Positions 32,811-64,000 of a stretch of 64,000 nucleotides of DNA are shown here, piece after piece. The position numbers and the translations under genes were made by a program. The stretch is from Fimicolochytrium jonesii (lineage: Eukaryota), in NCBI RefSeq assembly GCF_025526975.1, contig NW_026515671.1, forward strand, positions 1,550,001-1,614,000. Reading direction: 5' to 3'. How positions within the stretch are numbered: the first letter of the stretch is position 1; each line of letters opens with the position of its first letter. The notes under the pieces are model-generated. The model saw nothing but the letters and a program-made list of their open reading frames with translations. It made no database searches and had not been told where the DNA came from.

Positions 32811-32875
32811 GCGTTACTATAAGCGTTACTGGTCTTGCGTTACTGGCCTTCACAGTACACGCTTCCCATAGTACA
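32811..32875. repeat. Left-end cluster of GCGTTACT(GG) repeats (32811, 32823, 32837) plus ATAGTACA (32868-32875)
   Basis: Seen directly; the same motifs recur at 44821-44883. Confidence 0.75.
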
Positions 32876-33181
32876 CCACATATGATCCCATATGAATGGA
32901 CGCGTCAATGCGCGCAATTTAACAGAGAATTCGATTTTGATGATAACACTTAACAATTGATTAGGGGAATCGATTTTTCATTTTTTATGGCAACAGATTT
33001 GCCTCATGATTAGCTTCCACACACTCCCCCAATTAAAGGATGTCATATATAAGACAGCCTGCTGACGCTTCCCCTCACGTTTTCCCTATGCTTTCCACAG
33101 CACTTTTACGCCATCTTCAACACATCGCACACACATCACACCGTCTCTCCTCTCTCCTTTGCAACGCCACGCACTGTAAGT

Positions 33182-33252
33182 AAGCTGAGGATTATTGTGT
33201 TTTTGAACCAGAAGGGCTGGAAAGCGTCGAAAAACGGCGTTATTCTCAGCCT
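33182..33252. repeat. 71-bp palindromic motif, copy 1 (in probable 5'-UTR intron 33176-33305)
   Basis: AAGCTGAGGATTATTGTGTTTTTG...CGAAAAACGGCGTTATTCTCAGCCT. Confidence 0.9.
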
Positions 33253-33341
33253 GTCGGAGTTTCGACAGCTTGACTGACGTGACTGACGTTTGTTCGAAAG
33301 TTTAGGTATACCAACACACCCTGCCCTCATCATAAGTGAGT

Positions 33342-34248
33342 ATGGCTTCTTCTTCTTCGGCAACGGGACGGGGACCCAACGACAACGGGGAGGGGGATAT
33401 GGGGATGGCCATGTACGACCTGTCAGAAATGCACTGGCAGATGGGGCAGGAGGAGACGGAGACGACGATTGCCGTCTTCTGTTACCTCTGGATCCTCTAC
33501 GACCCAGTGATCGTTACCCGCATGGTCGATGGCCACCAGGTCGAGTTTTACTGGTGGTCACTCAACCAATCGAGGCACATCAGGACGCTGCAGAGGCGTG
33601 CCCGCTCGGCGGCGGCCTTCGGCCTCTGTCGAGTGGATTCAGAGGCGCGCCTCTACCACGAGGGGAAGCAAGTCAACGGGGTGATGCTGAGGAAGGATTG
33701 GGTCGGGGGTACGTATCTTCTCGACAAGCTGAGGATTAATGCGTTTTTCGACGTCCCCGGCGTGCGCGCGTCAAAAAATCGCATAAACCTCAGCTTGTCT
33801 TTGTTTTGTTGCTGCGTTGAAGGGCAATAACAATAACCGTGTTCTTCTCTCAGATTGCTTGAGGATCCACCCATTGGACGCAGAGAGGCTCAGGGATTGA
33901 ATGTTGCCAGCATGGGACAACACCGCACTATGCCCCCTTGGCCATCTCTGCAAAGGCGCCTCCGTCGCACACAGCATCCATCAGACATGGGATGCTCCCA
34001 TCTTTCCGCCACCGCCAATCGGCCCAACCGCAACCGCCGCAGCCACTGCCCCCTCCCCAGGCGACTACTCCCAGCCATGGTTGTCCTTCCAGGACACAGT
34101 TGTTGAGGGAATGCGTAACCCTTCGTCCGAGGTTATCGATGAGGCTGAGGACATCTTCGAAAATACGGAGCAGATGAAGGAATGGCGGAAGCAAATGGCT
34201 GAATACTATAGCCGGAAGAGGACCAAGGATGCTGAAGCCGATGAATAA
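33342..34248 (+). pseudogene. Crypton cargo gene 1, unknown protein of about 253 aa; exons 33342-33708 and 33854-34248; in-frame TGA at 33898-33900
   Basis: Phase-1 intron GTACGT..TCTCAG joins the two ORFs in frame; no family recognised. Confidence 0.6.
33726..33796. repeat. 71-bp palindromic motif, copy 2 (in intron 33709-33853)
   Basis: AAGCTGAGGATTAATGCGTTTTTCGACG..CGTCAAAAAATCGCATAAACCTCAGCTT. Confidence 0.95.
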
Positions 34249-34480
34249 TATGTTCCATATCATACCATTTCTGAATATATTCTGATTGTTGGCCTCTTCT
34301 TTCCTTTTCTCAATTAACATCAGAATATGGTCAACCCATGACCCCCTGCCCCGCCCGGTTCTGCCAGGAAACTGGCCTTGGATGCTCCACGCGGTCTTCC
34401 AAATCGCCCAAATCGCCCTGCATTAATTCCCCAATCTAGAATTGATAATGTCACAGGAACTTGGAAGGTGGGTTTTGAAC

Positions 34481-34551
34481 AAGCTGAGAGAACCTTGATT
34501 TTCGCCGTCCCCGGTCTGGAGAGGGTTCAAAATGGCACTAATCTTCAGCTT
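34481..34551. repeat. 71-bp palindromic motif, copy 3 (in intron 34468-34561)
   Basis: AAGCTGAGAGAACCTTGATTTTCG..TTCAAAATGGCACTAATCTTCAGCTT. Confidence 0.9.
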
Positions 34552-34963
34552 GGTACGTCAGGTTGGTTATCCACCAAAGTCCACGTTCCCAAAGGCGCTG
34601 ACTCTGCGACGAAGAAGGGGCGGATATCGGTCGGGCGAGTTGGCAGAGGCCGAGATCAAACACTATGCCCATACATATGGGTCGGTGATCCTAAAGTCGC
34701 CCTTCAGGAAGTTGATAGAGGAGATCGACTATGAAGTGCCCCGGGCTCACAATCAGAGCATCGCGACAACCCCGGGGGCGACGCCGTTCTCTGAAAGGCA
34801 TCGCTGGTACCAAGAGGCAGTCGATGCCCTCCAGGAGGCCGCTGAGACATACATCAGCGCCCTCTTCTCAAACTCCATCATGCAACAACGGCATGCAAAG
34901 CGTCGGACTCTGAACAAGGACGACGTGAGTACTTGTTTGTCATTCAACGCATTCCAGTTACCC

Positions 34964-35034
34964 AAGCTGAAGATAACGCCGCTTTTGACGTCTCTGGGGA
35001 GGGGGACGTTCAAAAAGCGGATAATTGTCAGCTT
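34964..35034. repeat. 71-bp palindromic motif, copy 4 (in intron 34925-35076)
   Basis: AAGCTGAAGATAACGCCGCTTTTGACG..CGTTCAAAAAGCGGATAATTGTCAGCTT. Confidence 0.9.
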
Positions 35035-35109
35035 GGCTTGTATTCCACACTGATTGATTCTCTTTTTGACAAATAGTTTCGGATGGTCCGGTACTTCCGG
35101 AAGCTGCTG

Positions 35110-35639
35110 TGTTATGAATGGGCGGAGCCGATGGAAATAGAGGCGACTTGTGGTGCAGGTTGTTGACAGGTAATGGTATTCAGACCGAAACAAGAACTAG
35201 AACAAGACTAGGAAGAACTGGTGTTGATCTGCTGGGGGATCAGGAAGTGGGGAGCTCAGGGGAGGCGGCTATTTATGTTTTTCTGGGAAGGCTGGGGAAG
35301 CGTGGGGAAGCAGAAGGGTACGGAATGAGAGGGAAGCCAAGAGAAGCGCCAAGGGTGGGGAAGCATAGAAACAGAAGACTGGGGATGGGGTGGCTACGCT
35401 GAGGCTGTGGGCGGGTACGTGGGGAAGTATGGAGAAGGGTTTGTAAGCGCCGAGTGTTGGGAGGTGTGGCTACGTGCGGCTGCGTGGAGAATTGAAGGCA
35501 GTGGCAGGTGTGGGGTAGCGCCGCTGCGTGCGGCTGCAAGGTTTGGCAGATGTCAGGTTTTGACAGGGAATTGACATTGACTGACTGTTGGGATGCTGTC
35601 ATGAGGTAAGCGCATGGTATGGACGCGTCGTCCATAACA
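35110..35639 (-). repeat. 3' LTR, 530 bp
   Basis: Begins TGTTATG and ends CATAACA; about 6 substitutions relative to the other LTR. Confidence 0.97.
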
Positions 35640-35651
35640 TCACCCCCTCCT

Positions 35652-38600
35652 TTAGCCACGGCGTCCGGATGTTGTTTTGATGTTGGCAGGCTTTGGTCGG
35701 GGTTTGTCGGGGTACTTTTGGTGGAACTGGGCAACAAGCTCTTGACATCGGGCAAGGTGTTCCACTGGCTCCCATGTGTTCTCCGAGCTTGGCCAACCCT
35801 GCCACTTGATGAGGTACTGAAGGTGCGTGCGTCGAATACGGGAGTCAAGAATGTCTTCCACAATCCATTCCTCCTGTCCTTCGACTTCTTCTGGTGGGGT
35901 GGGTTCTGGCTCAGTTCGCTCCGGAATGGTGAAACGTGGTTCAAGAAGGGAGACATGGAAGACGTTGTGAATTTTGTAGGATGGGGGAAGCTTGAGGCGA
36001 TATGTGACCGAGTTGATCTTCTCCGTGATTGTGAAGGGGCCAATCTTACGGTGATCAAGTTTCTGGGAAGGTCGGAGAGTCTTGAGATTCCGCTGTAAGA
36101 GCCAGACACTGTCCCCGGGTTTCATGTCTGGGCCAGGTGCCCTCTTAGCATCGGCAAAGCGCTTCATGCGTCCTTGGGCCTCCTTGAGCTCAGTGGCAAG
36201 CTGTTCATGGATTTCCTTGAGATGGTTGGCACGAGCTTCGGCTGCAGGATTAAGGGATTCGGTTGTGGTGGCGGAAGCCAGACTGAATCGAGGATGGAAC
36301 CCATAGTTGGCGTAGAAGGGGGTTGTCTGGGTGGCGGAGTGGATGGTGTTATTGTAAGAGAACTCAGCAGAAGACAAGAGTTCCTTCCAGTTATCTTGTT
36401 GATAGTTGCAAAAGCAGCGAAGGTATTGCTCAAGAATCTGATTGGTCCGCTCGGTTTGTCCATCGCTCTGGGGATGGAACGCCGATGAGAGGTTGACCTT
36501 GGTTCCCAGGAGAGCGAAGAGACGTTTCCAGAAGTGGGAGTTGAACTGTGGGCCACGGTCAGATACAATATCGTCGGGGAGTCCATGGAGCCGGATGACA
36601 TGGTGCCAGATCAGATCTGCAGTTGACTCAGCGGTGGCAGTTTTCCTGCACGGTACAAAGTGCGCCATCTTGGTGAACCGGCAGATGACAACGAGCACAG
36701 AATCAACCCCATCACTGGCGGGTAGATCCGTGATGAAGTCCATAGGAAATTGACCCCCAGGGGCGGTCAGGGACCTGCAGGGGTTGGAGGAGTACCGTAG
36801 GGCTTGTGTCTGCTGGTCTTGGCTTGAGCACATACGTCGCAGGACCTGATGTAGGACTTGACAAAACGCCACTGGCTAGGCCACCAGTAGTTGCGTGAGA
36901 TGAGCTCCAGGGTCTTTGACATGCCGTAGTGTCCTGCCAAACGCGTGTCATGCATGTCCCGGCAGATCTCAGCACGGAGCTTGTTGGTGGGGACGTAGAC
37001 AAGGTTGTCGTACAGCAGAACCCCATTTTCCTCGGAGAATCGCTTTATCCGTTCTTGGTCTTCTTGAGATTGCTGGGCAATGGGGGCCCTAAGCTGTCGC
37101 CGGATGGTTTCGCGCAAACACATCGGATGCCAGGGCAGCTTTGATTTGGTCAAGGAGCGAGGAGTCCAGTGGGGTCAGATAAGTGGCGGCCAGGCGGAGA
37201 TGGTCAGGGGTGAGGATCGTGGTTTCCTGGGAGCGGAATGCTTCTTCCCCCTCCCTTAGCTCGTATTCAGAGCGACGAGAGAGGGCGTCAGCTTGGTGTT
37301 GCTGGGTACCAGGGCGGTATGTGATGACAAAGTCGAAATCAGCAAAGAAGATTGACCAGCGGGATTGGCGGCGGTTGAGGGTACGGGTAGTCATTAACTG
37401 GAGGTTCTTGTGGTCACAGTAAATGATGACCTTGTGGCGGGCACCAATGAGGTGGTGTCGCCATTGAGCAAATGAGTCTTGGATAGCCAGGAGTTCCTTG
37501 TCGTAGATCTCATAGTTGATTTCCTCAGGAGTAAATTTGCGGGAGTGAAAGGCCACAGGGTGGAGTTGATCTGTGTCATCGGGTTGAAGGAGGACGGCGC
37601 CAAGGGCAAAGTCGGAGGCATCGGATTCGACAATGAAGGGCTTGTCAGGGTCGGGGTGAGTCAGGATAGGTGCGGAGGTGAAGGCTTTCTTGAGGGTTTC
37701 AAAAGCTAGGTGTGCAGCGTGGGTCCATTTGAATGGCAAGTCTTTGCGAGTGAGCGTGGTCAGGGGTGCAACGATCGCAGAGTACCCTTTGATGAATCGC
37801 CGGTAGAAGTTGGCAAAACCAAGGAAGCGCTGGATGCCTTTGACATTCGTCCGGGGTTCCCATTCGGTAATGGCAGCCGTCTTCTTTGGGTCCATGGAAA
37901 TGCCTTGCTGGGAGATGATAAACCCCAGGAACTCAACAGAGTCACGGTTGAATTCGCATTTTTCCGGTTTCGCATACAGCCCGTGCTGGCGGAGTCGTGA
38001 GAGCACCTCTCGGACGTGGTTGGGGTGGTCTTCTGGGTTTTTTGAGAAGATCAGAATGTCGTCAAGGTAGACCACAACAAAAACGTCGAGAATGTCACGG
38101 AATATGTCGTTCATGAGGTGTTGGAATACTCCAGGGGCATTGGTGAGCCCAAACGGCATGACATTATACTCGAATAGGCCGTAGCGACATTGGAACGCTG
38201 TCTTCCATTCATCCCCTGGCCGGATCCGAAGAAGGTTGTAGGCTCCCCGGAGGTCAATCTTGGTGAGCCGGCGTGCCCCTCGAAGACGATCCATGATGCT
38301 GTTAATCAAGGGCAAGGGATAGCGATTCTTGATGTTGATATTGTTGAGTCCACGATAGTCGACGCACAGACGGAGGGAACCGTCCTTTTTCTTGACAAAG
38401 AGGACTGGGGCACCGGCGGGAGACTTGGAGTGCTTGATGAACCCCTTAGCTAGGTTCTCTTCAAGGTAGTCACAGAGTGCCTGCATTTCAGGCTTGCTGA
38501 GACTATAGATCGGGCCGAACGGTGGCTGTTTGCCCTCTTCTAAGTCGATGGGACAGTCGTAGGGTCGGTGCTCTGGGAGGGTATCCGCGTTCTTCTTGGC

Positions 38601-39321
38601 AAAGACGTCCGCAAAATCTTGGTATTCTTCAGGAATGATGGCCTTCGGATCTTTTGGAGGAGTGGTCGCCAGGGCTTGGGAATCTGACTTGGTCGGATTG
38701 GCGTAGGCAATGAAAGCCTGGTCATGCCTTGCCGCCACACGGAAAGCCTGGGGCGCTGATAAACGATACGTGGATCGGTGTGGGTGCTGGGTCCAGTGTG
38801 TTGGGTGTCTGGGCTAGGGAGACTGAAATCTCGTCTTGATGGATACGGATCAGAGGTTCAGGGGTTCTTGAGGGCTTCGGGCTAGGTTCTGTTGGCAGGG
38901 CATCCCAGGAGGCGTATTGTCCAAAACCGCAATGGCAGCGGACGCAAAGAGTGCGAGTCTTCCAGTGTAGCTCCACATCATGGAGCTCAAACCAGGGATG
39001 CCCCAGGATGATTGGCGCATGCGGGGAACATGTCACATGGAATATCACCTCCTCAAAATGGTCGTTGACCCACATGCCCAAAGGTTGGGTGTGATGGGTA
39101 ATGGAGCCCGCATGGCTGGGACGTCCGTCAACCAGTTCAAGCGCAATGGGGTCCTCCTTCTTGACAAGTGGGATGCGGTGCTTGCGGGCATAACTTTTGT
39201 CGATGAAGCACGACATCGCACCGGTGTCGAGTAGTGCTGAAAGCTGAACTGGAGCTCGCTGGGCCGATATCTGCAGGGTAACAGGGTACTCGAATGGTGA
39301 GGATGGGCCCAAAGTCCGCAT
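35652..39321 (-). pseudogene. pol: Gypsy pol (protease-RT-RNase H-integrase-chromodomain) with about 4 single-base frameshifts
   Basis: Domains are spread over ORFs 38722-39321, 37089-38738, 36767-37153, 36712-37026 and 35652-36872. Confidence 0.93.
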
Positions 39322-39479
39322 GGGTGAGGGTATCTCAGATAGGAGATTGACATTGTTGGTGGTCAGGAGAAGGGTGTTGCTGGAGATGCCAGGATCAGAG
39401 CAAGGTTTTGTGGCTTCTCCCTTGGCAGTACTTGCGTGGCGAGAAGGCCCAGGACAGGTGTTGCCCAGCTGCTCGGCCT

Positions 39480-40406
39480 TTACTGCAGCTGGACTTGGGC
39501 AAAATCCTGGATGGGTGCAGGTTCCTTAACCGCGACATTCGCCGTGCGTATCTTGTTCGGGCAGAGTTTGGCTATGTGGCCGGGTTTACCACAGTAGAGG
39601 CAAAGTTTGTTTGTGATGCGGTGTTGGCGCTCTAGCGGTGTGAGGGGTCCTCGCGGACGAGCAGCGTCAATGATCATAGGGTCGTCTGGGCGGTTGTCGG
39701 GGCTCATGAGGGTGGGGCTAGTGGTAACTGGCACATATGGCTGTCGGTTCCTGCTTCGCTCTAGACGGCGCTCAAACAATCGGTTGTCACATTGGATGGC
39801 CTGTTCCATCACGGTGTCAATTGAGGCGGTAGGGGGCATCGTGAGCATTAAGTCCTTGACGTCTTCTTTGAGGCCGCGACGGAAGGTGGCAATCAATGCC
39901 TGGTCATTCCACGACACATCGCATTGCAGCTGTCGGAATTCAGCTACATACTCTGTTGCTGCACGGGTTTGTCGAAGGTTCTGGAGCTTGTTTTCGGATG
40001 TGCGGATCCTGTCGCTGTCTCCAAAGACTGCTTGCATTTGCTGGATGAAATCATCCAGGTTCGTAAGGGAATGATGGTCTTGTTTGACAAGGGGCGCCAG
40101 CCAGGCCTGGGCGGTGCCAGTGAGGTAGGTGCCAATAGGCCGTATCTTGGTCTGATCGTTGGGGTAGCGCCTGGGTTGGAGGGCGAACATGAGCCGGATC
40201 TGGTTGAGGAACCCACGGAACTTGCTTCGGGTGCCATCAAATTTGTCTGGGAAACTGATTTTGGGTTCGGGGGCGTGGGTGGCAGGGGCAGTGGTCTAGG
40301 TTTGTGCTAGTTCGGCTTGTAGGGTGGTATTCTGTGCTCGAAGTTCGTCAATCGCATTGCACATGGCTTGCCAGGCTTCGGCCGTGAGGGGAAGGGCGTC
40401 GGACAT
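39480..40406 (-). pseudogene. gag: Gypsy gag with an in-frame TAG at 40296-40298
   Basis: PKISFPDKFDGTRSKFRGF, LCLYCGKPGHIAKLC zinc knuckle; the ATG at 40406 is in frame with ORF 39480-40190. Confidence 0.9.
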
Positions 40407-40457
40407 GGTGATTTGGCGTGGAGGTACAGCGGCTGGGGGTTGTTGAGCAGATCAAAC

Positions 40458-40987
40458 TGTTATGAATGGGCGGAGCCGATGGAAATAGAGGCGACTTGTG
40501 GTGCAGGTTGTTGACAGGTAATGGTATTCAGACCGAAACAAGAACTAGAACAAGACTAGGAAGAACTGGTGTTGATCTGCTGGGGGATCAGGAAGTGGGG
40601 AGCTCAGGGGAGGCGGCTATTTATGTTTTTCTGGGAAGGCTGGGGAAGCGTGGGGAAGCAGAAGGGTACGGAATGAGAGGGAAGCCAAGAGAAGCGCCAA
40701 GGGTGGGGAAGCATAGAAACAGAAGACTGGGGATGGGGTGGCTACGCTGAGGCTGTGGGCGGGTACGTGGGGAAGTATGGAGAAGGGTTTGTAAGCGCCG
40801 TGTGTTGGGAGGTGTGGCTACGTGCGGCTGCGTGGAGAAATGAAGGCAGTGGCAGGTGTGGGGTAGCGCGGCTGCGTGCGGCTGCGAGGCTTGGCAGATG
40901 TCAGGTTTTGACAGGGAATTGACATTGACTGACTGTTGGGATGCTGTCATGAGGTAAGCGCATGGCATGGACGCGTCGTCCATAACA
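40458..40987 (-). repeat. 5' LTR, 530 bp
   Basis: Direct repeat of 35110-35639. Confidence 0.97.
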
Positions 40988-41483
40988 TGCTGAGTGCTTC
41001 GGAGCGGACCAAATACCGTAAACGTCAACATCTGATGGAATTGAAGAGGACCCAACAGGCGTGGACAAGGTTGTGGTCGTCGTCGTCGTGGCCAAAGCCA
41101 AAGCCAAAAGCCTTGGCGTCGACGTCGAAGCCACTGAAGGCCATAGACCTTACGCTTGCTGAGGACGAAGCCGTGAAGGCAAAGAGGGAACGGGCGCATA
41201 AGAGGGCTGAGGAAAAGAGGGAGGCTGCCAAAGGGGGGAAGAGGAAGGGCAAGGAGATCGATACCGACGATGAACTGTCGGACGAGGTGAGTGGCCAGGA
41301 GAAAGTTTCTCATATCATGATACCAATACTGACTTTCTAGGAGGAGGGCAAACTTGGCGGACGAGAAGACACGCCGGATTTTGGGGAGTACAAGAAGGGG
41401 ATGAATGCTCTCGGAAAAGGAGGGAAGGGGGACGGCAGCGGTGGTGGCGCTCCTTTTCCATACGTGACAGAATGAGAGAGGGT

Positions 41484-41554
41484 AAGCTGAGGTTTATGCT
41501 GTTTTTCGACGTCCCCATTGAGTTCTCACTCAAAAACGCAATAATCCTCAGCTT
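41484..41554. repeat. 71-bp palindromic motif, copy 5 (between the convergent stops of the H3-like and recombinase genes)
   Basis: AAGCTGAGGTTTATGCTGTTTTTCGACG..CTCAAAAACGCAATAATCCTCAGCTT; preceded by GT, so possibly in a 3'-UTR intron. Confidence 0.95.
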
Positions 41555-41723
41555 CCACCATCGAATCTTGTACACCTCGCATAGAGAACATGCTTTCGCA
41601 CGCACGCACGCACGCAATACATAATCTCTCCTTTTTCGCGTTTCCCTTGATATGCCCTACCCTCATGTTTGGTTCCTTAGCTTATAAGTTCTACCAGAAT
41701 GCACAAAGAGCGTACATTGCAAG

Positions 41724-44569
41724 TTATGAGCACCGTTGTTTTTGATTTTCATTCAGGAAATCTTGGTATTCCGCTAGCGTAAGCTGTTTCTGGCATCGCT
41801 CTACCTCCATTGCACGAGCAGCCTCCTTGCCTGTGGTCGCCGTCAGTTGGCAACGTGCCTGTACAGCATCATATATCCTCTTTCGCCGTGTATAATGAGT
41901 CCGCTCAGTTGTGGCCGCCCGCCAGCTGGACCGCCACCCCGCATCCAATGCCCTTACAGACGGCTGCCTCGCCCTGTTCTCATCTACCAAGCCCTTGTCG
42001 TACTCCTCCCAGACTTGGATGACCGTACCAAGCCGGCGACTCATGATGTACTTTGGGATGTCACCAGCCGCTGATGTCGCTGAGGGTGTAGGCGGAGGAG
42101 TAGGCAAATGCTCTTTGGCGAGGGCTTGGGAAGGCACAGACGTGGCGTCTTGTGAGGCCAACAGGCGGGAGAGCAAGGCTGGCTGTGGCCGTTCCGTTGA
42201 CCGCAGTTGTTCCAATGCATTTTGAGCCTTCCTCCAGGATGGCAACATTTGCAAGTCGGTCATCATGCCTTCTATAGATCCCATGAAGTCTTCCACATGA
42301 TCAATGCGCTGACTATGCAAAGCGACGTCGCTACCGACGCCGTTGATGTAAGCAGACACAAGCTGCGAAGCCTTGATGGTCATAGCGATGCCCTCGCGCC
42401 CGCGTGTATCGATATCTGCAAACATATGGATGTCAGAGACGTCGGCGATTGTTAAGACAGGCAAGCTGAGGTTTAAGCTGTCTTTTGACGTCCCCATCGG
42501 GTTCTCGCTCAAAAACGCGATCATCCTCGGCTTGTCACCAACGAAGGCAATGCACGGACTTACTTGCAGTTACTCGGTCCTCTGAATCCATGACTCGTTT
42601 TGTGAGCGCCGCCATCTGGTGCTGTATACCTTCTTCAACCGTTGCCACCTTCGTCAGTATGGAATCGTTAGTTGCTTTGATCGCGACGGCGACATTTGGC
42701 AGCACATGCTCAATAGATGCGATTGTTGGATCTGGTGACGTTTCCTGCGCCGCCTTGAGTTTCGCGTGGTATTCGAGAAAGACAGGGTTGGCGAAGACCG
42801 GATGGAGCCAGATTGGTTTGCTGGAAAATGCGATTGAAGTAATGCGGAATCTTGTAGTAGGCTTTTGCGTAACTTGACTAGCAGGGTTGCCACGTTCTTG
42901 CTGGCAATGCAAGGCAGTGTGCGCTCCTTTCGATCGTGGGCATCGAGTGCTTCTTTAGCCCACGGGAAGATCTGGTCAACTAGTTCCTGTGGCCGTTCGA
43001 CTTCCCTTGGCAGAAAATACCCGCCTTCATTTGCAGGCCACTCGCCGATGGCCCGCATCACTTCTTTGGGGACATCCGTGTCATACCCGAGCCAAAATGC
43101 ACTACGACTCCAACCTCCCATATTGGTGATCGCGTTTACGTCCGCTCCGTTGCCTCTGGCTTCCTTACTACCGGTACCGCGGGTTAAGTGGGTGACCTTG
43201 GAAGCGTGAATCCCGACTGCCGCGAAGGCTGCTTTGAACATCTTGTTGTGCGGTTGGTATGTAAAGCGATTGGGATTATTTCGCAGGCCCCCATCTTCAT
43301 CGTCCGACGAGAGAACCTTGCGCGTTCGTTTCCTTCCAGTTTTGGTGATATCCTTTTTCATAAAGTACGTGTTGTACCACGATGCCTTGTCAAACAGATC
43401 CGGTGGAGTTTCCTAAGAGTTTCCAGAAGTAGAAACAAGCTGAGGATAACCTCGGTTTTGGGCGTCCCACAACGGGGCACGTCCAAAAACGCACTAATCC
43501 TCAGCTTGTCCACCTCAAGAAAAAGGTCAACAAGCAACATGCAACATGTTCCTTACCGTGCTTATATGCCATCTGTAGAAGAGATACACTGCAACATGCG
43601 CTATAGCGCAGAATATAACATTCTTTGCCCGCATGAAACCGACAGTTTCCAATCGCCCAAATTGATTTGTTTTCCCATGCCGCGATGTGAGCTCGACGCC
43701 CCATGCTGGCGTGGGTCCTTCATTACCATCCAACGGCAGAAAGGCGAAACAGGAGAGTTGTAAACCGCGCATGATTTGGCCTCGCTGAAGGGTGGCGTGT
43801 TGGATCAAAAAGGATGTGTAGTTCCGGAGCCCGGACTCTGGAGTTTGCTGCAAAAAAGGGATCCTGAATTAGAAGAGGCCAAGCTGAGGTTAATGCGGTT
43901 TTTCGACGCGCGCACGCCGGAGACGTCGAAAAATGCACTAATCCTCAGCTTCCCAACGATCAACCATTCACGCACCTGCGTCCACCAATGCTTTGCTAGA
44001 TTCAACTGGTCCTTGTTGTCGTAAGAATCACCTGTACTCCCGATCCCTCGATCTTTCAACGCTTTATAATCGCTGTTATACTGATCCCTACTCTGAGTTT
44101 TCAGCATCTCCTTTATTGTGGTCATTCGAGGATAATTGGGTTTGATGTTCTCGCCCAATGCTTGCTGGGAATCGGACAAGTCCGTCACGGCCTTGACGTA
44201 CTGGTCCAACGTAGCCCGTGACATGGGCTTTGGAGGATTGTAGGGCTGTCCTCTATTGTTTAATGCCCCCCGGGGCTTGACATATTTGTTGAGCCACAGA
44301 AGAACTTTGCCTGGCGTGACCTTTTGCGAGCGCCTGTTGGTGTCGCACCATGCCAGATACAACCTCGCACGGTGGCCATATGTGTTGTTAGTCTCAACCG
44401 GTCTCGCTCGTTGGTCCTTTTCCATTTGTTTAATGGTGCTTTGGTGAACTTCCGCATCCTGCACGTCTTCCAAGTCCTCCACTATGCTATCGTCGTCCCT
44501 CGGGGCGTCACCATCGTCCAGACCAGCTGCAGCGGTGGCCTCTGTGGTGGCTGTAGGGGTCGCAGCCAT
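41724..44569 (-). CDS. Crypton tyrosine recombinase (Ndc10-like YR plus C-terminal GCR1_C), about 808 aa; exons 44569-43976, 43847-43557, 43412-42564, 42415-41724; one apparent 1-nt frameshift near 42820
   Basis: Candidate catalytic residues: R (HATLQRG), K (GKTNQFGR), HxxR (KVTHLTR), GGW, Y (FWLGY). Crypton-like motifs GYFLPRE, QIFPW, LLQDSA..PIWLHPVF. GCR1_C-like YIMSRRLGTVIQVWEEY..PSVRALD..W...WR..YTRRKRIYD. All three introns are phase-consistent. Confidence 0.92.
42463..42533. repeat. 71-bp palindromic motif, copy 6 (in recombinase intron 3, 42416-42563)
   Basis: AAGCTGAGGTTTAAGCTGTCTTTTGACG..CTCAAAAACGCGATCATCCTCGGCTT. Confidence 0.95.
43437..43507. repeat. 71-bp palindromic motif, copy 7 (in recombinase intron 2, 43413-43556)
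   Basis: AAGCTGAGGATAACCTCGGTTTTGGGCG..CGTCCAAAAACGCACTAATCCTCAGCTT. Confidence 0.95.
43881..43951. repeat. 71-bp palindromic motif, copy 8 (in recombinase intron 1, 43848-43975)
   Basis: AAGCTGAGGTTAATGCGGTTTTTCGACG..CGTCGAAAAATGCACTAATCCTCAGCTT. Confidence 0.95.
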
Positions 44570-44591
44570 GTCGTTGCCGTCCAGTGTGTCC

Positions 44592-44662
44592 AAGCTGAGA
44601 ATTATGCTAATTTTCAACGTCGCTTTGGACTTCTCGCCCAAAAACGCAATAACCCTCAGCTG
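44592..44662. repeat. 71-bp palindromic motif, copy 9 (just upstream of the recombinase ATG)
   Basis: AAGCTGAGAATTATGCTAATTTTCAACG..CCCAAAAACGCAATAACCCTCAGCTG. Confidence 0.9.
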
Positions 44663-44820
44663 TACGAACAAATGCCGTCACCCGGCCTATGGTCACACGC
44701 ATAACTAATCATTTCCATTGTACCCATGTATGGCAGAAATGCCCCATTGAGGGCATTTCCGTTTTCTATTAGTGCCGTACATAGTCATTTCCCAAGATAC
44801 ATAGGGGGGTCACGTGACTC

Positions 44821-44883
44821 GCGTTACTGGTCTAGTTCTGAGTAACGTGAACGCGTTACAGGCGTCACTGACCCGATAGTACA
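44821..44883. repeat. Right-end cluster: GCGTTACTGGTCT (44821), inverted AGTAACG (44841), GCGTTACAGG (44853), ATAGTACA (44876)
   Basis: Matches the left-end motifs; the 13-bp GCGTTACTGGTCT is identical at 32823 and 44821. Confidence 0.75.
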
Positions 44884-55426: not shown

Positions 55427-56971
55427 CTTTTTTTGGGTTTGCGAGGAGGGCGCCTTTTTGGATTCTGGCGGAGAGATGCGGTTCTTAAGTTAGCCGTGCG
55501 CCCGTCCTGGTATTTTGTCGCCTTGGGGACCAGGACGAGCTCACGAGTGTTGTGACTTGGCCGTGGGGATGTCGAACGCGACGTGAATGGGAATCGCAGA
55601 CGAAGGGCCTCAACGGGATACGAGGATGGATAACGTCAACAAGTACATTTATTCAACTGGGCGACATGTATAGAATATTGCAAGAAGACTTCATCGTCAA
55701 GTGGACAGATGGGAATAGGCAGCGAAGCAAGGAAAACAAAAACACATCTGCAGATCATAGCCTCGTCAACGGGACAACCCCGCGAAAGCAAATCAAGCGT
55801 CCCTGCCATCAAATACGTAGGTAGGAGCAAGCACCGCCAGGTTCGTGAACTCGATGTGAAGCCAGTGCATCTGAGCACTGTGGATTGGCGCGGTGCTCAA
55901 ACATATCTCCGCTGAACTACGTAAAGCCCGAGACAACATCACTGCTGCAGCGTATTTCGCGCTTTACCGAGTCCCCAAATATGGTGCTTCCTCGGACGTT
56001 TTAGCACGGAAGCTATGCAGGCAGACTTCGGGCGAACGAAATCAAGCATGCTACCCACACCCAAAAAGACCGGTCCCGTTGTGGATAGCATGCTTGATTT
56101 CTTTCGCATGATTCGCGGAGCTTGGTACACAGGCTTGTCTCGAGGAACGTATGCGGAAGGTAAGTACTTCAAGCGCCAACTGACTGCGGAAGAGCAAAAC
56201 GATTGAGCTCATCAAATCGTGGTAGATTGTTGTGGATTACACGATTACACGCGGATCTGGGAACATCGTATCGAAACAGCGGAAAAGAGACTCTTGATCT
56301 CCTTTGCGTCGTCGTCGTCCATCGCCGCAAAATGTTCCCGTTCGTGACGCCAAGGAAGTCATCTATCCCCCTTCCGCCAAGCAGCAATACTTCCATGTGT
56401 CTCATTCGGGCCCGTTGGTCAGATTGATCGTGCATTTTGCAAAGAGTTGATGTGCTCTCGGCTGGGACCTGCAAGCGCCTGGCGACGAGGGTGATTCCGG
56501 TGAAACGGAACCAGTAAAGGCGATGGGTAACATAGCCGGAGGCGAATTTTTGCCCTTAGCATCAGAGGGAGGCTCGTCGAAGAGATGGAAAACCAGAAAG
56601 TACTGGGACGCCGGTCACGTGTCGTTTTATGAGTTTATTCGATCCCTTCTCTACATGTACCCTTCGTTCAGACATTCAACCCAGGTGTGCTTTCAAGTCG
56701 GATAACGCCTCTTCCTGGACGAGAAACACAGCAGGAAGGAAGGTTGCGTTGCAAGCTGAACGGGCTGCGTATCTGGAGCTTAGTTGTGAGGGTATACGAG
56801 CGAAGGAGCGCCACCAGATGTCGAGCTAACGACCTCCAAGATCACTTTGCCGCTACGACCCGAGAGGTGACATAAGTGGGGCCTTATAGTAGGAACGATA
56901 TTTTGACCGGAGAGGAGCTGGTAGAACAGAACGGTTCCCCGGAGAGGACGGGCCAGTAGTGAGAACTAGCC

Positions 56972-61361: not shown

Positions 61362-64000
61362 CTATGCTTTGGCAGTCTCAGCTGAAGAAGCCGGCGTTTC
61401 GCCAGGGGTATGAGCAAAAGTTTTCGTCGGCTCGATAGGCGGGATGTCGGCGGATCCGATAGTCGAGTCTGGAGTCAGTTTCAACGACGAGGTGTCGACC
61501 AAACCTTCTGCCTGCTCGGAGGAGGGAATATCTGCGGCAGGTTGTGCTGGGTCATCCGCCCGGGTGTCTGCAGATTCAGAACATGATACATCGGTCGAAG
61601 GTTCGGCAGGCTGCGAAGGCGAAGCCTCAGCCAGAGCTTCTGTGGGCGAACTATCAGCAGCCGTTTCCGCGGGCACATCCGTCGCACGTTCAGGATGCGA
61701 TCCATCAGTCGATGTTTCCGCAGGCTGCAAAGGCAAAGCCTCAGCCAGAACGTCTGCCCGCTCAGAGGGCGAACTATCAGCAGCCGTTTCCGCGGGTACA
61801 TTCGTCGCTGAGGTTTTCGTAGGTTCAGGATGCGATCCATCAGTCGATGTTTCCGCATGTTGAGAACGGGACACTGTTTCTGCTGGCTCGGACGAGGGAT
61901 CCGACAAATTTCCCGCCAATTCCTCGCACAAAGCATAGTTAGCCCCCAACGCAATCCACGCCGCCCCCGACTCCCCACCCAACGCCACCAACCCCAGCGC
62001 CTCGGCCCCTTTAGTATACTGTGAGAAATTGACGGGCCCTGAGGCGCGTTTGAACAGCATCGGATTGCGGCGGGTGAGGTCCACCCCGACTTGGCTGCGG
62101 CGCGGTTGTTTCTGGCCGTCGCGCGCTCGGGCATACAGCACGGTGATTAGGTCGAGGTATCGTTCGGGAATTGGTTTGGTGATGGTGGTGATGCTCTCCG
62201 GGCCGGCGGTTGTCGTAGGTCTCGCGGGCGTGAGGGAGATCGGGGTCTCTGTGCCGGAGGCTGGTGGGGTGTCCGCCCCGGACGACGACGTAAGTGATCC
62301 AGGCGACGAGATGTCCGACGAAACTTCCGCAAGCCGAGAAATCGAGAGGTCACAGGAAGTTTTCGCAGGTTCAGATGAGACATCGGACAAGCTCCCTTCT
62401 GGTTCAGACGACGAGGTGTCCGGCGACAACACGTCCGGCGGCTGGGAAGGCGAGATGTCACCCAAAGTTTTCGCAGGTTCAGATGAGACATCGGTCAAAC
62501 TTTCCGCATGCCGAGCGCCCGCACTAGTTCGCGCGGCCCTCATCTCCAACTCCCGCAACGCTTTAACAATCTCATCCGCCGCCCCAAACTTCCTCTCCAA
62601 AAAAATGCGCGCCTTCCTCGTACCGACCCCCTGCTGAACCTGCCCTCTTAGCGCCGCGAGAGCCTCCTTCGCCCTACTCATCATCCCCTCCACCCTGAAC
62701 AAAATCACCAACTGCACCAACGTCTCCGGTTGCACCTGCACCCCCGTGTCCCGCATCTGCTGCCGAACCCTCACCGCGTTGACAACATCCCCGGTCGATG
62801 CATATGCCGACAACACCGCGTTCCAGTCCTCCCGGAACGCTTTCAAACCACACTGATTGAACCAGCCCAGTACACTTTCCGTCGCGAGGCCGTTGCCGAC
62901 TTGGCTAAACCCGGTGAGGAGGACGCGAAGGGTTGCGATGCCGACGTGCAGGCCCGCTTGGAGGAGCGTCTGTGAGAGTTGCGAAAGAGTGCCAGTTTTG
63001 TTGTCCATGGCATGTACGAGACGGACAGCTAGGTTCGTATCGGTGCGCACCCTGAGGTGTTTGAAGCCGCGTTTCTTGATTTGGAGCCAGGCGGAGACAA
63101 GTTTGGCCCGTTGAACGAGATCGGAGGGGGTGGGGATGGTGCCGTCTAGGTTTGGGACCGGTGGAGAGGTTGAGTTGGGGAGAGGGGTCGTTTCGGCAGG
63201 CTTCATCTTCTGGCGCAGTTCAGCGGCTGTGGCGTGCCTGCCTGCTTCCTCACAGGCATGTATCACGATGTTGAACATGTCTTGACGAGCAGGTTTCTTC
63301 ATCGCCGCGTTGCGTTGCTCAAACAATGCCAAGACCTTGGAAATGTTCAGATTCTTGACGTAAAAGTGGATCAACTCAAAGAAGAGCACATCATCAGGTC
63401 CCCACTTGTCATTTAGTTCCGCAAAAACCTTCACGATCTCCGCTTCATGGTTGCCTGCCGTGCATCCCTGCATGTACGCCGCCGCCGCCCGCCTTTTCAA
63501 GTGATGCTCCAAAAACTGATCCAACAGCAGTCGGGCAGCACTGAACTGTCCCATATGCGCATAACACAGCATGAGATTTAGTTCCCCATACCGATCCACA
63601 AAAAGAATCTTGTTCTCACTCGCCGTCTGCAACACCCGGTCCACCATTGTCGGACTCTGCAGCCGCGCAAAGAAGTAAATAAACTCCTGGTAAACACCGA
63701 TATCCGGGGGGGTGCCCGTGGCGGTATAGTACTGCCACAGCTTGGTGAGGAACGTGACGTGGTCGCGGCGGTCCCAGGGCTCTCTCTTGCCATTGCGTTT
63801 GTAGGTGTACAGCACGTACTTCAGCGCTTCGGCAGTGAGCCAGGGTGCGTCGCCGGCGCTTTCAACTTGGGGGTAGAGTACCCACACGGACATCTGGTAG
63901 TTTTGTGAGACAGCCCTGTAGAACTCTTCGAGCAGGGCTGGGTTGTTGGGGGTGGCGGATCGGGAGGCGGGTGGCTTGACGGGGGTGCTGTGGGACCGCG
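61362..64000 (-). CDS. PPR-like repeat protein with a winged-helix/LOTUS-like domain and a repetitive Ser/Pro/acidic tail; 5' end outside the window
   Basis: PPR-like units (PDIGVYQEFIYFFAR, DMFNIVIHACEEAG, EDWNAVLSAYASTGDV); imperfect DNA repeats near 61640-61860 and 62357-62495. Confidence 0.7.
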   Translation of the reverse strand, partial: RSHSTPVKPPASRSATPNNPALLEEFYRAVSQNYQMSVWVLYPQVESAGDAPWLTAEALKYVLYTYKRNGKREPWDRRDHVTFLTKLWQYYTATGTPPDIGVYQEFIYFFARLQSPTMVDRVLQTASENKILFVDRYGELNLMLCYAHMGQFSAARLLLDQFLEHHLKRRAAAAYMQGCTAGNHEAEIVKVFAELNDKWGPDDVLFFELIHFYVKNLNISKVLALFEQRNAAMKKPARQDMFNIVIHACEEAGRHATAAELRQKMKPAETTPLPNSTSPPVPNLDGTIPTPSDLVQRAKLVSAWLQIKKRGFKHLRVRTDTNLAVRLVHAMDNKTGTLSQLSQTLLQAGLHVGIATLRVLLTGFSQVGNGLATESVLGWFNQCGLKAFREDWNAVLSAYASTGDVVNAVRVRQQMRDTGVQVQPETLVQLVILFRVEGMMSRAKEALAALRGQVQQGVGTRKARIFLERKFGAADEIVKALRELEMRAARTSAGARHAESLTDVSSEPAKTLGDISPSQPPDVLSPDTSSSEPEGSLSDVSSEPAKTSCDLSISRLAEVSSDISSPGSLTSSSGADTPPASGTETPISLTPARPTTTAGPESITTITKPIPERYLDLITVLYARARDGQKQPRRSQVGVDLTRRNPMLFKRASGPVNFSQYTKGAEALGLVALGGESGAAWIALGANYALCEELAGNLSDPSSEPAETVSRSQHAETSTDGSHPEPTKTSATNVPAETAADSSPSERADVLAEALPLQPAETSTDGSHPERATDVPAETAADSSPTEALAEASPSQPAEPSTDVSCSESADTRADDPAQPAADIPSSEQAEGLVDTSSLKLTPDSTIGSADIPPIEPTKTFAHTPGETPASSAETAKA

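What the first reader, a model, noticed from the sequence alone, without database searches (positions are those of the whole stretch)
33182..44662. Nine dispersed, exactly 71-bp dyad-symmetric motifs confined to the element
Seen: copies start at 33182, 33726, 34481, 34964, 41484, 42463, 43437, 43881 and 44592, and each spans 71 bp from AAGCTGA to its complement. Half-site consensus is roughly AAGCTGAGGWTWA-n5-TTTTYGRCG, with a variable GC-rich centre of about 15 bp. Without the Gypsy insertion the copies are 444-979 bp apart. Substitutions are common but total length never changes, flanks are unrelated, and I see no TSDs. Inference: selection on geometry points to a dimeric protein-binding or DNA-wrapping site rather than a passively decaying MITE.
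Basis: seen in the sequence. Interest (0 to 1): 0.9.

Follow-up and report, generated by a model that had tools for sequence, protein, structure and literature searches.

The report
Histone-sized palindromes hidden in transposon introns
A broken fungal jumping gene that carries its own odd histone H3 has nine mirror-symmetric 71-base sites, one in each of nine predicted introns, whose length and A/T rhythm match the stretch of DNA that a histone H3-H4 core wraps, so they likely serve as landing pads for the element's own chromatin.

Summary
Confirmed: nine gap-free 71-bp dyad motifs at the stated coordinates, no others in the window, no TSDs. Added: each lies in its own predicted intron of a decayed CryptonF element (NDC10_II+GCR1_C recombinase, orphan cargo, H3 variant). 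The arms show no compensatory pairing, so double-stranded DNA is the likelier substrate. Centres diverge (0.63) at constant length while outer boxes stay conserved (0.11-0.21). 71 bp is the published (H3-H4)2 tetramer site (PMC2724288), and A/T steps sit at ±14-16, ±23-25 and ±34.5 from the dyad, in nucleosome phase (p 0.01-0.03). Best reading (0.45, inferred): positioning sites for the element's H3 variant, with outer boxes read by an element protein. Against: no signal at ±5, a post-hoc test, and copies that are polar and share centres in pairs, as a mini-MITE or gene conversion would give. No genome, RNA or relatives in other species could be examined. The scan noted the same array before on another piece of this genome (e1-10708118, motifs not checked). 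No precedent found in my literature searches.

The parts
33182..33252 (+). 71-bp motif 1, in predicted 5'UTR intron 33176-33305 of cargo 1
   Evidence: intron from splice signals only (GTAAGT...TAG, CTGAC branch)
33726..33796 (+). 71-bp motif 2, in coding intron 33709-33853 of cargo 1
   Evidence: sister-copy gene model P0001 skips the same stretch
34481..34551 (-). 71-bp motif 3 (most degenerate; antisense to its gene), in predicted intron 34468-34561 or -34579 of the H3-like gene
   Evidence: both acceptors keep the frame, but an ATG inside the motif also opens the frame, so this intron is less secure
34964..35034 (+). 71-bp motif 4, in coding intron 34925-35076 of the H3-like gene
41484..41554 (-). 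71-bp motif 5, in predicted 3'UTR intron 41482-41584 (+) just after the H3-like stop
   Evidence: splice signals only (GTAAGC...TAG), no branch match
42463..42533 (-). 71-bp motif 6, in coding intron 42416-42563 of the recombinase gene
43437..43507 (-). 71-bp motif 7, in coding intron 43413-43556 of the recombinase gene
43881..43951 (-). 71-bp motif 8, in coding intron 43848-43975 of the recombinase gene
44592..44662 (-). 71-bp motif 9, 7 nt after a GTTCGT donor at 44669; first intron of the recombinase gene, acceptor uncertain
   Evidence: splice signals only
33342..34248 (+). Cargo 1, orphan protein of about 253 aa in two exons, with an in-frame stop at codon 138 in this copy
   Evidence: 222 of 238 residues identical to P0001; weak relative P0002, E 2e-4; no Pfam family
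34327..41477 (+). H3-like histone gene of about 315 aa: divergent N-tail, loop 1 about 14 aa longer than Cse4, W at H3 F84, long basic/acidic C-tail; stop at codon 5 and split by a Gypsy insertion; one 54-nt intron (41287-41340) has no motif
   Evidence: Pfam Histone 4.9e-15; PDB alignments; Atlas; frame check
35110..40987 (-). Gypsy/chromovirus-type LTR retrotransposon inserted in the H3-like gene; LTRs 35110-35639 and 40458-40987, 5-bp TSD; holds no motif
   Evidence: (6 mismatches in 531 columns)
41724..44569 (-). CryptonF tyrosine recombinase gene (NDC10_II + GCR1_C); candidate catalytic R, K, HxxR, W, Y present; frameshift near 42820
   Evidence: Pfam PF16787 3.2e-14 and 2.7e-15, PF12550 2.8e-15; frames; catalytic assignment by eye from recalled consensus
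32811..32875 (+). Candidate left end: three GCGTTAC repeats, then ATAGTACA
   Evidence: boundary unresolved
44821..44883 (+). Candidate right end: two GCGTTAC repeats (13-bp identity with the left cluster), then ATAGTACA
   Evidence: boundary unresolved

Best explanation
The nine 71-bp motifs each lie in a predicted intron of a decayed CryptonF transposon and are likely double-stranded DNA sites on which the element's own H3 variant, with host H4, would be positioned as an (H3-H4)2 core, while the conserved outer boxes are likely read by an element-encoded protein. Shown: the motifs, their fixed length, uneven conservation, lack of compensatory pairing, dyad-centred 10-bp A/T rhythm, and the element's H3-fold and recombinase genes. 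Inferred, step by step: (1) the introns are spliced and serve to hide sites spread every 0.44-0.98 kb along the element from the mRNAs; (2) the T5/A5 tracts at ±14-16, the A/T steps at ±23-25 and the AA at ±34.5 face the histone core; (3) the nearly invariant GCTGA boxes at ±29-33 are read base-specifically, by the recombinase's NDC10_II/GCR1_C part, by cargo 1, or by the variant's long loop 1; (4) new sites arose by copying or gene conversion between introns, which explains the polarity and shared centres; (5) the purpose is most likely private chromatin that keeps the element from being silenced, as VANC motifs do for VANDAL elements, and less likely segregation of an excised circle.
For: Length: 71 bp is the published (H3-H4)2 site, bp 39-109 of the 147-bp nucleosome, and dominates binding energy (PMC2724288, passages). 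Phase: WW steps at ±13.5-16.5, ±22.5-25.5 and ±34.5, SS steps between, best period 9.9; r = -0.54 against the nucleosome cosine, p = 0.010 with column shuffles, 0.016 and 0.028 with block shuffles; no signal at ±37-73 (r 0.09). Under a generic model with no fitted parameter all nine centres rank above the 97.3rd percentile of the window, and the mean score peaks at offset 0. Minor-groove-inward A/T at about ±5, ±15, ±25 is described in PMC2880596 (passage). The element encodes an H3-fold protein. Double-stranded DNA rather than hairpin: native arms pair no better than swapped arms (165 vs 169.4 ± 3.7), folding energies are no better than chimeras (p 0.72 RNA, 0.71 DNA), covariation is at or below shuffles (433 of 500 as high), and there is no Rfam match (best E 0.85). 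Selection on geometry: divergence 0.11/0.21 in outer boxes, 0.63 in the centre, no indel. One per intron: 9 of 10 predicted introns; chance 6e-4 that all nine fall in introns and 3e-3 that they are distinct. Precedent for element-encoded factors bound in introns of their own element: VANC21 (PMC5735166, passages).
Against: No binding, expression or splicing data. The phase test is post hoc and modest. A palindrome can only be in phase or in antiphase, the nine copies are not independent, and only 1 of the window's 40 best-scoring dyads is a motif centre. There is no A/T at ±5, and TA steps occur only at ±23.5 (12 of 18). Phased A-tracts suit any bending protein. The weak extension at -1/-3 blurs the match to 71. 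The variant has lost H3 R40, R49, R63 and R72 (alignment) and changes the dimer helix, so it may not wrap DNA; its fold could not be modelled (pLDDT 52). Polarity and 65/71 and 62/71 pairs fit a mobile repeat. The intron statistics are partly circular, since three UTR introns were defined from signals around the motifs. Spacing shows no nucleosome-repeat period (p 0.50). All three genes in this copy are broken, so present function here is unlikely.
Confidence: 0.45

Rival explanations
1. The motifs are sites for a dimeric non-histone element protein alone (recombinase NDC10_II/GCR1_C or cargo 1) that bends the DNA; they act as anti-silencing, enhancer or accessory sites, and the histone-like length is a coincidence.
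For: Two conserved boxes per arm with a looser 5-nt spacer and fixed centre. Ndc10 and Gcr1, both CryptonF-derived (PMC3212892), bind DNA; Ndc10 is dimeric and is modelled to bend or loop centromere DNA (PMC6077249, passages). VANC precedent.
Against: Does not explain why the element carries an H3 variant, nor the joint match of length and phase. 71 bp is long for one such dimer (general knowledge).
Confidence: 0.25
2. The motif is a tiny non-autonomous mobile repeat (MITE-like) or a gene-conversion unit that spread through this element family and survives only in introns, with no function for the element.
For: Imperfect inverted arms; polarity; sub-clusters with shared centres. Introns minus 71 nt are 32-81 nt, median 66, as if the motif had been added to ordinary short introns. 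The weak relative P0002 seems to read into an intron at the same place without the motif's translation (weak).
Against: 0 of 9 TSDs. None in about 52 kb of host DNA or in the 5.9-kb Gypsy. None in 755 nt of non-intronic non-coding element DNA, and never two in one intron. The centre is near-randomised with no indel: exp(-146r) = 0.05 at an assumed indel:substitution ratio of 0.02, 7e-4 at 0.05 (copies not independent).
Confidence: 0.18
3. The motif acts as an intronic RNA hairpin (splicing control, small-RNA precursor or RNA signal).
For: All copies are intronic; 7 of 9 are in the same sense as their gene; individual copies fold at -14 to -38 kcal/mol. The arm ends in a CAG, and a CTAAT branch-like word is absent from the sense-strand 3' arm in 8 of 9.
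Against: No compensation; RNAalifold covariation term is +0.7; no Rfam family; a fixed loop length is not needed for a hairpin. Power is low with nine related sequences.
Confidence: 0.07
4. The motifs are crossover sites of the element's tyrosine recombinase (attC- or shufflon-like) that would shuffle or excise exons.
For: The recombinase keeps candidate catalytic residues. The sites lie in introns and share sequence in pairs. Each arm can be read as 11-7-11 bp, the geometry cited for YR sites (PMC3212892).
Against: The 11-7-11 internal symmetry is not above chance (p 0.67). No hairpin covariation and no length variation, unlike attC (recalled). Gene order is intact. Arm and centre distances give no clear sign of mosaicism either way (Mantel p 0.09-0.17).
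Confidence: 0.05

Closest known systems
CryptonF DNA transposons (Kojima & Jurka 2011, PMC3212892; passages read)
   Same: Tyrosine recombinase with C-terminal GCR1_C; no TIRs; fungal host; source of Ndc10/Cbf2, Gcr1, Msn1, Hot1
   Different: The passages seen report no histone cargo; the word 'palindrom' and the word 'chytrid' occur 0 times in the main text; its supplements were not read. Here there are two cargo genes and nine intronic 71-bp sites.
VANDAL/VANC anti-silencing system of Arabidopsis (PMC5735166; passages read)
   Same: Element-specific motifs in introns and other non-coding parts of the element, bound by an element-encoded protein (binding only inferred here)
   Different: VANC motifs are 8-9 bp in tandem repeats of Mutator-type elements (class recalled); here single 71-bp dyads, one per intron, with a histone variant as cargo
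In vitro nucleosome-positioning sequences, 601 type (PMC2724288, PMC2880596; passages read)
   Same: 71-bp core; A/T at half-turns and G/C at whole turns from the dyad
   Different: Natural, multi-copy and with near-invariant outer boxes; no A/T at ±5; TA only at ±23.5; affinity unmeasured
2-micron plasmid STB with Cse4, and budding-yeast point centromere with Ndc10/CBF3 (PMC2064333 abstract; PMC6077249 passages)
   Same: A selfish or sequence-defined locus paired with an H3 variant and, for CEN, a Crypton-derived DNA-binding protein
   Different: There the H3 variant is the host's and the site is one AT-rich locus; here the element encodes the variant, the sites are nine GC-centred palindromes, and no segregation role is shown
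Introners / MITEs (PMC7789003; passages read)
   Same: Repeats with inverted ends tied to introns
   Different: Introners are whole introns with repeats at the splice boundaries and direct repeats; these motifs float 2-49 nt from the donor and at least 10-24 nt from the acceptor in unrelated introns and have no TSD

Membership tests
CryptonF (host element) | Tyrosine recombinase domain of the CryptonF/Ndc10 type | tested here: met
   PF16787 E 3.2e-14 and 2.7e-15; PF00589 weak, E 0.05; candidate R, K, HxxR, W, Y seen (assignment recalled)
CryptonF (host element) | C-terminal GCR1_C domain | tested here: met
   PF12550 E 2.8e-15
CryptonF (host element) | 4-6 bp terminal direct repeats, no TIRs | tested here: inconclusive
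   An 8-bp ATAGTACA repeat at 32868/44876 is within chance; longest inverted match between end regions 12 bp; no empty site available
CryptonF (host element) | Several genomic copies | tested here: inconclusive
   P0001 is 222/238 identical to cargo 1, origin unnamed; scan note e1-10708118 reports a second array; an allele is not excluded
MITE (motif) | Target-site duplication | tested here: not met
   0 of 9
MITE (motif) | Terminal inverted repeats | tested here: met
   Imperfect 28-bp arms
MITE (motif) | Dispersed high copy number in unrelated contexts | not testable with these tools
   No genome; none outside the element in this window
Introner / introner-like element | Repeat equals the whole intron and supplies its splice sites | tested here: not met
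   Intron ends are unrelated and lie outside the motif
601-type (H3-H4)2 positioning site | 71-bp dyad-centred span | tested here: met
   weak extension of 1-3 bp
601-type (H3-H4)2 positioning site | ~10-bp WW/SS alternation with W at half-turns from the dyad | tested here: met
   r -0.54, p 0.010-0.028; peak at offset 0
601-type (H3-H4)2 positioning site | TA-centred words at about ±5, ±15 and ±25 | tested here: not met
   TA only at ±23.5; T-tract at ±15; none at ±5
601-type (H3-H4)2 positioning site | Measured high affinity and single position | not testable with these tools
   needs reconstitution
CenH3 (cargo histone) | Extended loop 1, F84 to W, divergent N-tail (PMC3156773) | tested here: met
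   Alignment to H3.3 and Cse4; N-tail from gene model
CenH3 (cargo histone) | Closer to CenH3 than to H3 by sequence | tested here: inconclusive
   Best scores tie: 38.0 bits (an H3.3 entry that has W at this site), 37.5 Cse4, 35-36 canonical H3; no homologues for a tree
CenH3 (cargo histone) | Centromere localisation and kinetochore recruitment | not testable with these tools
   needs ChIP or imaging
Tyrosine-recombinase core site | Two 11-13 bp inverted repeats around a 6-8 bp spacer | tested here: not met
   Whole motif has a 15-bp centre and 28-bp arms; internal 11-7-11 symmetry of the arm p 0.67
Structured RNA (Rfam) | Family match or covariation | tested here: not met
VANC-type target | Motifs in non-coding parts, including introns, of the cognate element | tested here: met
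   (introns predicted)
VANC-type target | Short motif in tandem repeats | tested here: not met
   single 71-bp copies 444-979 bp apart
VANC-type target | Bound by an element protein, causing loss of silencing | not testable with these tools
   needs EMSA, ChIP and methylation data

The most novel reading that the evidence does not exclude
The element is a selfish proto-centromere kit: an Ndc10-like recombinase, a CenH3-like histone and nine natural 71-bp tetramer-positioning sites hidden in introns assemble sequence-specified variant nucleosomes that let excised circles segregate, a living model for how a Crypton protein and an H3 variant could have come together at point centromeres.
Probability: 0.12. 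Interest if true: 0.95.

Novelty: new variant of a known kind. Interest (0 to 1): 0.77.

Why it matters
Natural sequences that fix a nucleosome by sequence alone are rare, and in my searches no paper described a transposon that encodes its own H3 variant, or a Crypton with an intronic palindrome array. If the sites position the element's histone, a transposon builds private chromatin with its own core histone and hides the cis code in introns. Ndc10 derives from CryptonF (PMC3212892), so an element that pairs an Ndc10-type protein with a CenH3-like histone and defined sites would make a step in the origin of point centromeres testable in vitro. Even under the non-histone rival, the array gives the first candidate internal binding sites for a Crypton protein that I could find.

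Tried and rejected
Genome-wide scan: no genome is held. Sequencing runs: none was listed; this is no evidence on expression. Motif pattern scans: 0 in viral contigs, 0 in prokaryote genomes, 1 in metagenome contigs, a 76-bp match overlapping bacterial sequence upstream of a likely tRNA-synthetase gene, judged chance. The exact pattern matches only 5 of my own 9 copies, and these collections hold few fungi, so the blanks are weak. Half-site scan: 8 viral loci; 7 have no partner arm, and L010 (9 of 13 outer pairs at 71 bp) lies inside a phage ORF and lacks the right inner box. Protein searches: 0 hits for the H3 exon, the catalytic exon and a profile of 17 motif read-through translations, each limited to longer proteins; 0 viral loci for the recombinase exon and cargo 1; 1 weak Paenibacillus locus, dropped as chance; cargo 1 gave 3 hits, of which P0003 was dropped as noise. 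The cluster look-up for P0001/P0002 could not be made, so their origin is open. Atlas: nothing for cargo 1. PDB: nothing for recombinase exons. AlphaFold without alignments was unusable (pLDDT 37 and 52), so no fold search was run. Hairpin, 11-7-11 core site, periodic spacing at 10-11 bp or 140-230 bp and divergence by distance were tested and not supported. A pattern-based survey of host introns gave fewer hits than shuffled DNA (54 vs 78) and was discarded, so host intron number and length are not known. A literature check of the Q68 and T107 CenH3 marks found no usable passage; those two marks are recalled and not counted.

Full report
Observation. They align without a gap. Each copy, scored with a PWM built from the other eight, gets 32.5-79.5 bits, against at most -3.9 elsewhere in the window; nhmmer finds no tenth copy (next E 0.59). 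The half-site is AAGCTGAGGWTWA, five looser bases, then TTTTTSRACG, around a 15-bp GC-rich centre. Six of nine end in the exact complement. There is no TSD in any copy. Spacing without the retrotransposon is 444-979 bp. Two refinements matter. The motif is polar, with distinct left and right arms, and some copies share their centre: 33726 with 43881 at 65 of 71, and 41484 with 42463 at 62 of 71. The copies therefore descend from one another.

Context. The motifs lie in an element of about 6 kb, not counting the insertion, between two host genes. On the minus strand is a CryptonF recombinase gene: NDC10_II (E 3.2e-14 and 2.7e-15) and GCR1_C (E 2.8e-15), with a frameshift near 42820. On the plus strand are an orphan cargo gene with an in-frame stop, and an H3-like gene (Pfam Histone 4.9e-15) with a stop at codon 5 and a Gypsy insertion at 35110-40987 with a 5-bp TSD. 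This copy is dead. A library protein, P0001, is 222 of 238 identical to cargo 1 and lacks the stop, so a related copy or allele exists. A scan note (e1-10708118) reports nine such palindromes in a histone-carrying Crypton on another piece of this genome; I could not see its sequence. The host is called a chytrid fungus in other scan notes; I did not test that. The ends of the element are unresolved.

Introns. Each motif lies between a donor and an acceptor on the sense strand of its gene. Removing the introns around motifs 7 and 8 gives 492 open codons of recombinase; removing the one around motif 6 gives 317 codons open to the stop. Removing those around motifs 3 and 4, with the insertion skipped, gives 316 codons of H3-like protein with only the early stop. 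The intron around motif 2 is also skipped in P0001. Motif 3 is less secure, because a frame is also open from an ATG inside it. Motifs 1, 5 and 9 are in UTR or first introns predicted from splice signals alone. One element intron (41287-41340) has no motif. With my intron set, the chance that nine non-coding insertions all fall in introns is 6e-4, and that no two share an intron 3e-3. This is partly circular for the three UTR introns, and there is no RNA evidence.

RNA or DNA. Native arms form 165 Watson-Crick pairs against 169.4 ± 3.7 for swapped arms, and fold no better than chimeras. Pair counts are at or below shuffles on all five measures, the RNAalifold covariation term is +0.7, and Rfam has no match. 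Power is low with nine related sequences, but nothing favours a hairpin. Divergence is 0.11 and 0.21 in the outer boxes, 0.30 in the inner boxes and 0.63 in the centre, with no indel against 146 differences from the column majority. That is the pattern of a double-stranded site with fixed spacing.

Why a histone. Morozov et al. [quoted passage not shown] In the motif, WW steps are at ±13.5-16.5, ±22.5-25.5 and ±34.5, and SS steps at ±8.5-11.5, ±18.5-20.5, ±27.5 and ±32.5. The best period is 9.9. The correlation with the nucleosome cosine is -0.54 (p 0.010 with column shuffles, 0.016 and 0.028 with block shuffles), and the signal stops at the motif edge. The mean score peaks at the palindrome centre. 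The element encodes an H3-fold protein with a loop 1 about 14 residues longer than Cse4 and W at F84, two CenH3 traits (PMC3156773, passage), though its scores to H3 and Cse4 tie. It keeps the H113 and D123 equivalents of the H3-H3 interface (numbering recalled) and loses several DNA-contacting arginines. Against this reading: the test is post hoc and modest; a palindrome can only be in or out of phase; there is no A/T at ±5; TA occurs only at ±23.5; 39 of the window's 40 best-scoring positions are not motif centres; and phased A-tracts would suit any bending protein.

Mechanism proposed (0.45). Sites spread along the element are kept out of the mRNAs by introns. Each would position an (H3 variant-H4)2 core, and the nearly invariant GCTGA boxes at its edges would be read by the recombinase, cargo 1 or the variant's long loop. 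The likely use is chromatin that resists silencing. VANC21 binds motifs in introns and other non-coding parts of its own element and removes silencing (PMC5735166, passages). An unchecked scan note reports a TET-like cargo in another element of this genome (e1-10708257). A segregation role for an excised circle is the bolder option (0.12): Cryptons are proposed to excise as circles and gave rise to Ndc10 (PMC3212892, passages), and the 2-micron plasmid uses host Cse4 at STB (PMC2064333, abstract). All binding and functional steps are inferred.

Rivals. A non-histone element protein alone (0.25). A mobile mini-repeat or conversion unit with no function for the element (0.18): it explains polarity, shared centres and residual intron lengths of 32-81 nt, but not the lack of TSDs, the one-per-intron pattern, the fixed length or the absence from about 58 kb of other DNA. 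An RNA hairpin (0.07). Recombinase crossover sites (0.05): the 11-7-11 reading of each arm is not above chance (p 0.67).

Wider searches. No relative with the motif was found: 0 in viral contigs, 0 in prokaryote genomes, 1 chance match in metagenomes, and 8 half-site matches without a full partner. Protein searches found only P0001 and the weak P0002. These collections hold few fungi, so the blanks say little.

Novelty. The element meets the CryptonF domain tests. The motif fails the TSD test for a MITE and the whole-intron test for an introner. Five literature searches (listings and abstract starts only, plus passages of 10.1101/2021.11.30.470311 on chromatin-transposon fusions) showed no transposon-encoded H3 variant and no intronic palindrome array in Cryptons; the library lacks most subscription papers, and no supplements were read, including those of PMC3212892. 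Verdict: a real and unusual feature, a new variant of a known kind on present evidence, categorically new if the histone link holds. Interest 0.77.

Noticed in passing
window 32811-32875 and 44821-44883: Both end regions carry same-orientation GCGTTAC clusters (3 and 2 copies, one 13-bp identity) followed by ATAGTACA and ACGCGTC; they could be recombinase end sites, a diverged long direct repeat, or host promoter words.
   Followed up: partly
window 40993-41477: The H3-like protein has a C-terminal extension of about 140 aa, lysine/arginine-rich then acidic, with no Pfam match; unusual for an H3.
   Followed up: partly
window 34342-34467: The predicted N-tail of the H3-like protein holds an ARK word (GSARKL) like H3 K9/K27 but without the following serine (comparison recalled).
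   Followed up: no
window 34249-34326: A branch-like TTAAC and CAG acceptor end at 34325 between cargo 1 and the H3-like ATG, with no good donor; possibly a decayed motif-free intron or a sign that the two genes share a transcript.
   Followed up: no
protein P0002: A weak cargo-1 relative (37% over 106 aligned positions) appears to run into an intron at the same position as motif 2's intron, so that intron may be older than the motif.
   Followed up: partly
window 35110-40987: The Gypsy insertion is young (6 mismatches in 531 LTR columns), has CpG depletion (o/e 0.74 against about 1.0 in host DNA and 0.88-0.95 in the Crypton) and frame breaks in pol; the Crypton itself shows little CpG loss.
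   Followed up: partly
window 56032-56107: A 28-bp inverted repeat, 93% complementary, with a 20-nt gap in host DNA; unrelated to the motif.
   Followed up: no
window 61362-63893: An 843-aa ORF with PPR-like helical repeats and a repetitive Ser/Pro/Ala-rich C-terminus with several 45-120 bp repeats.
   Followed up: no
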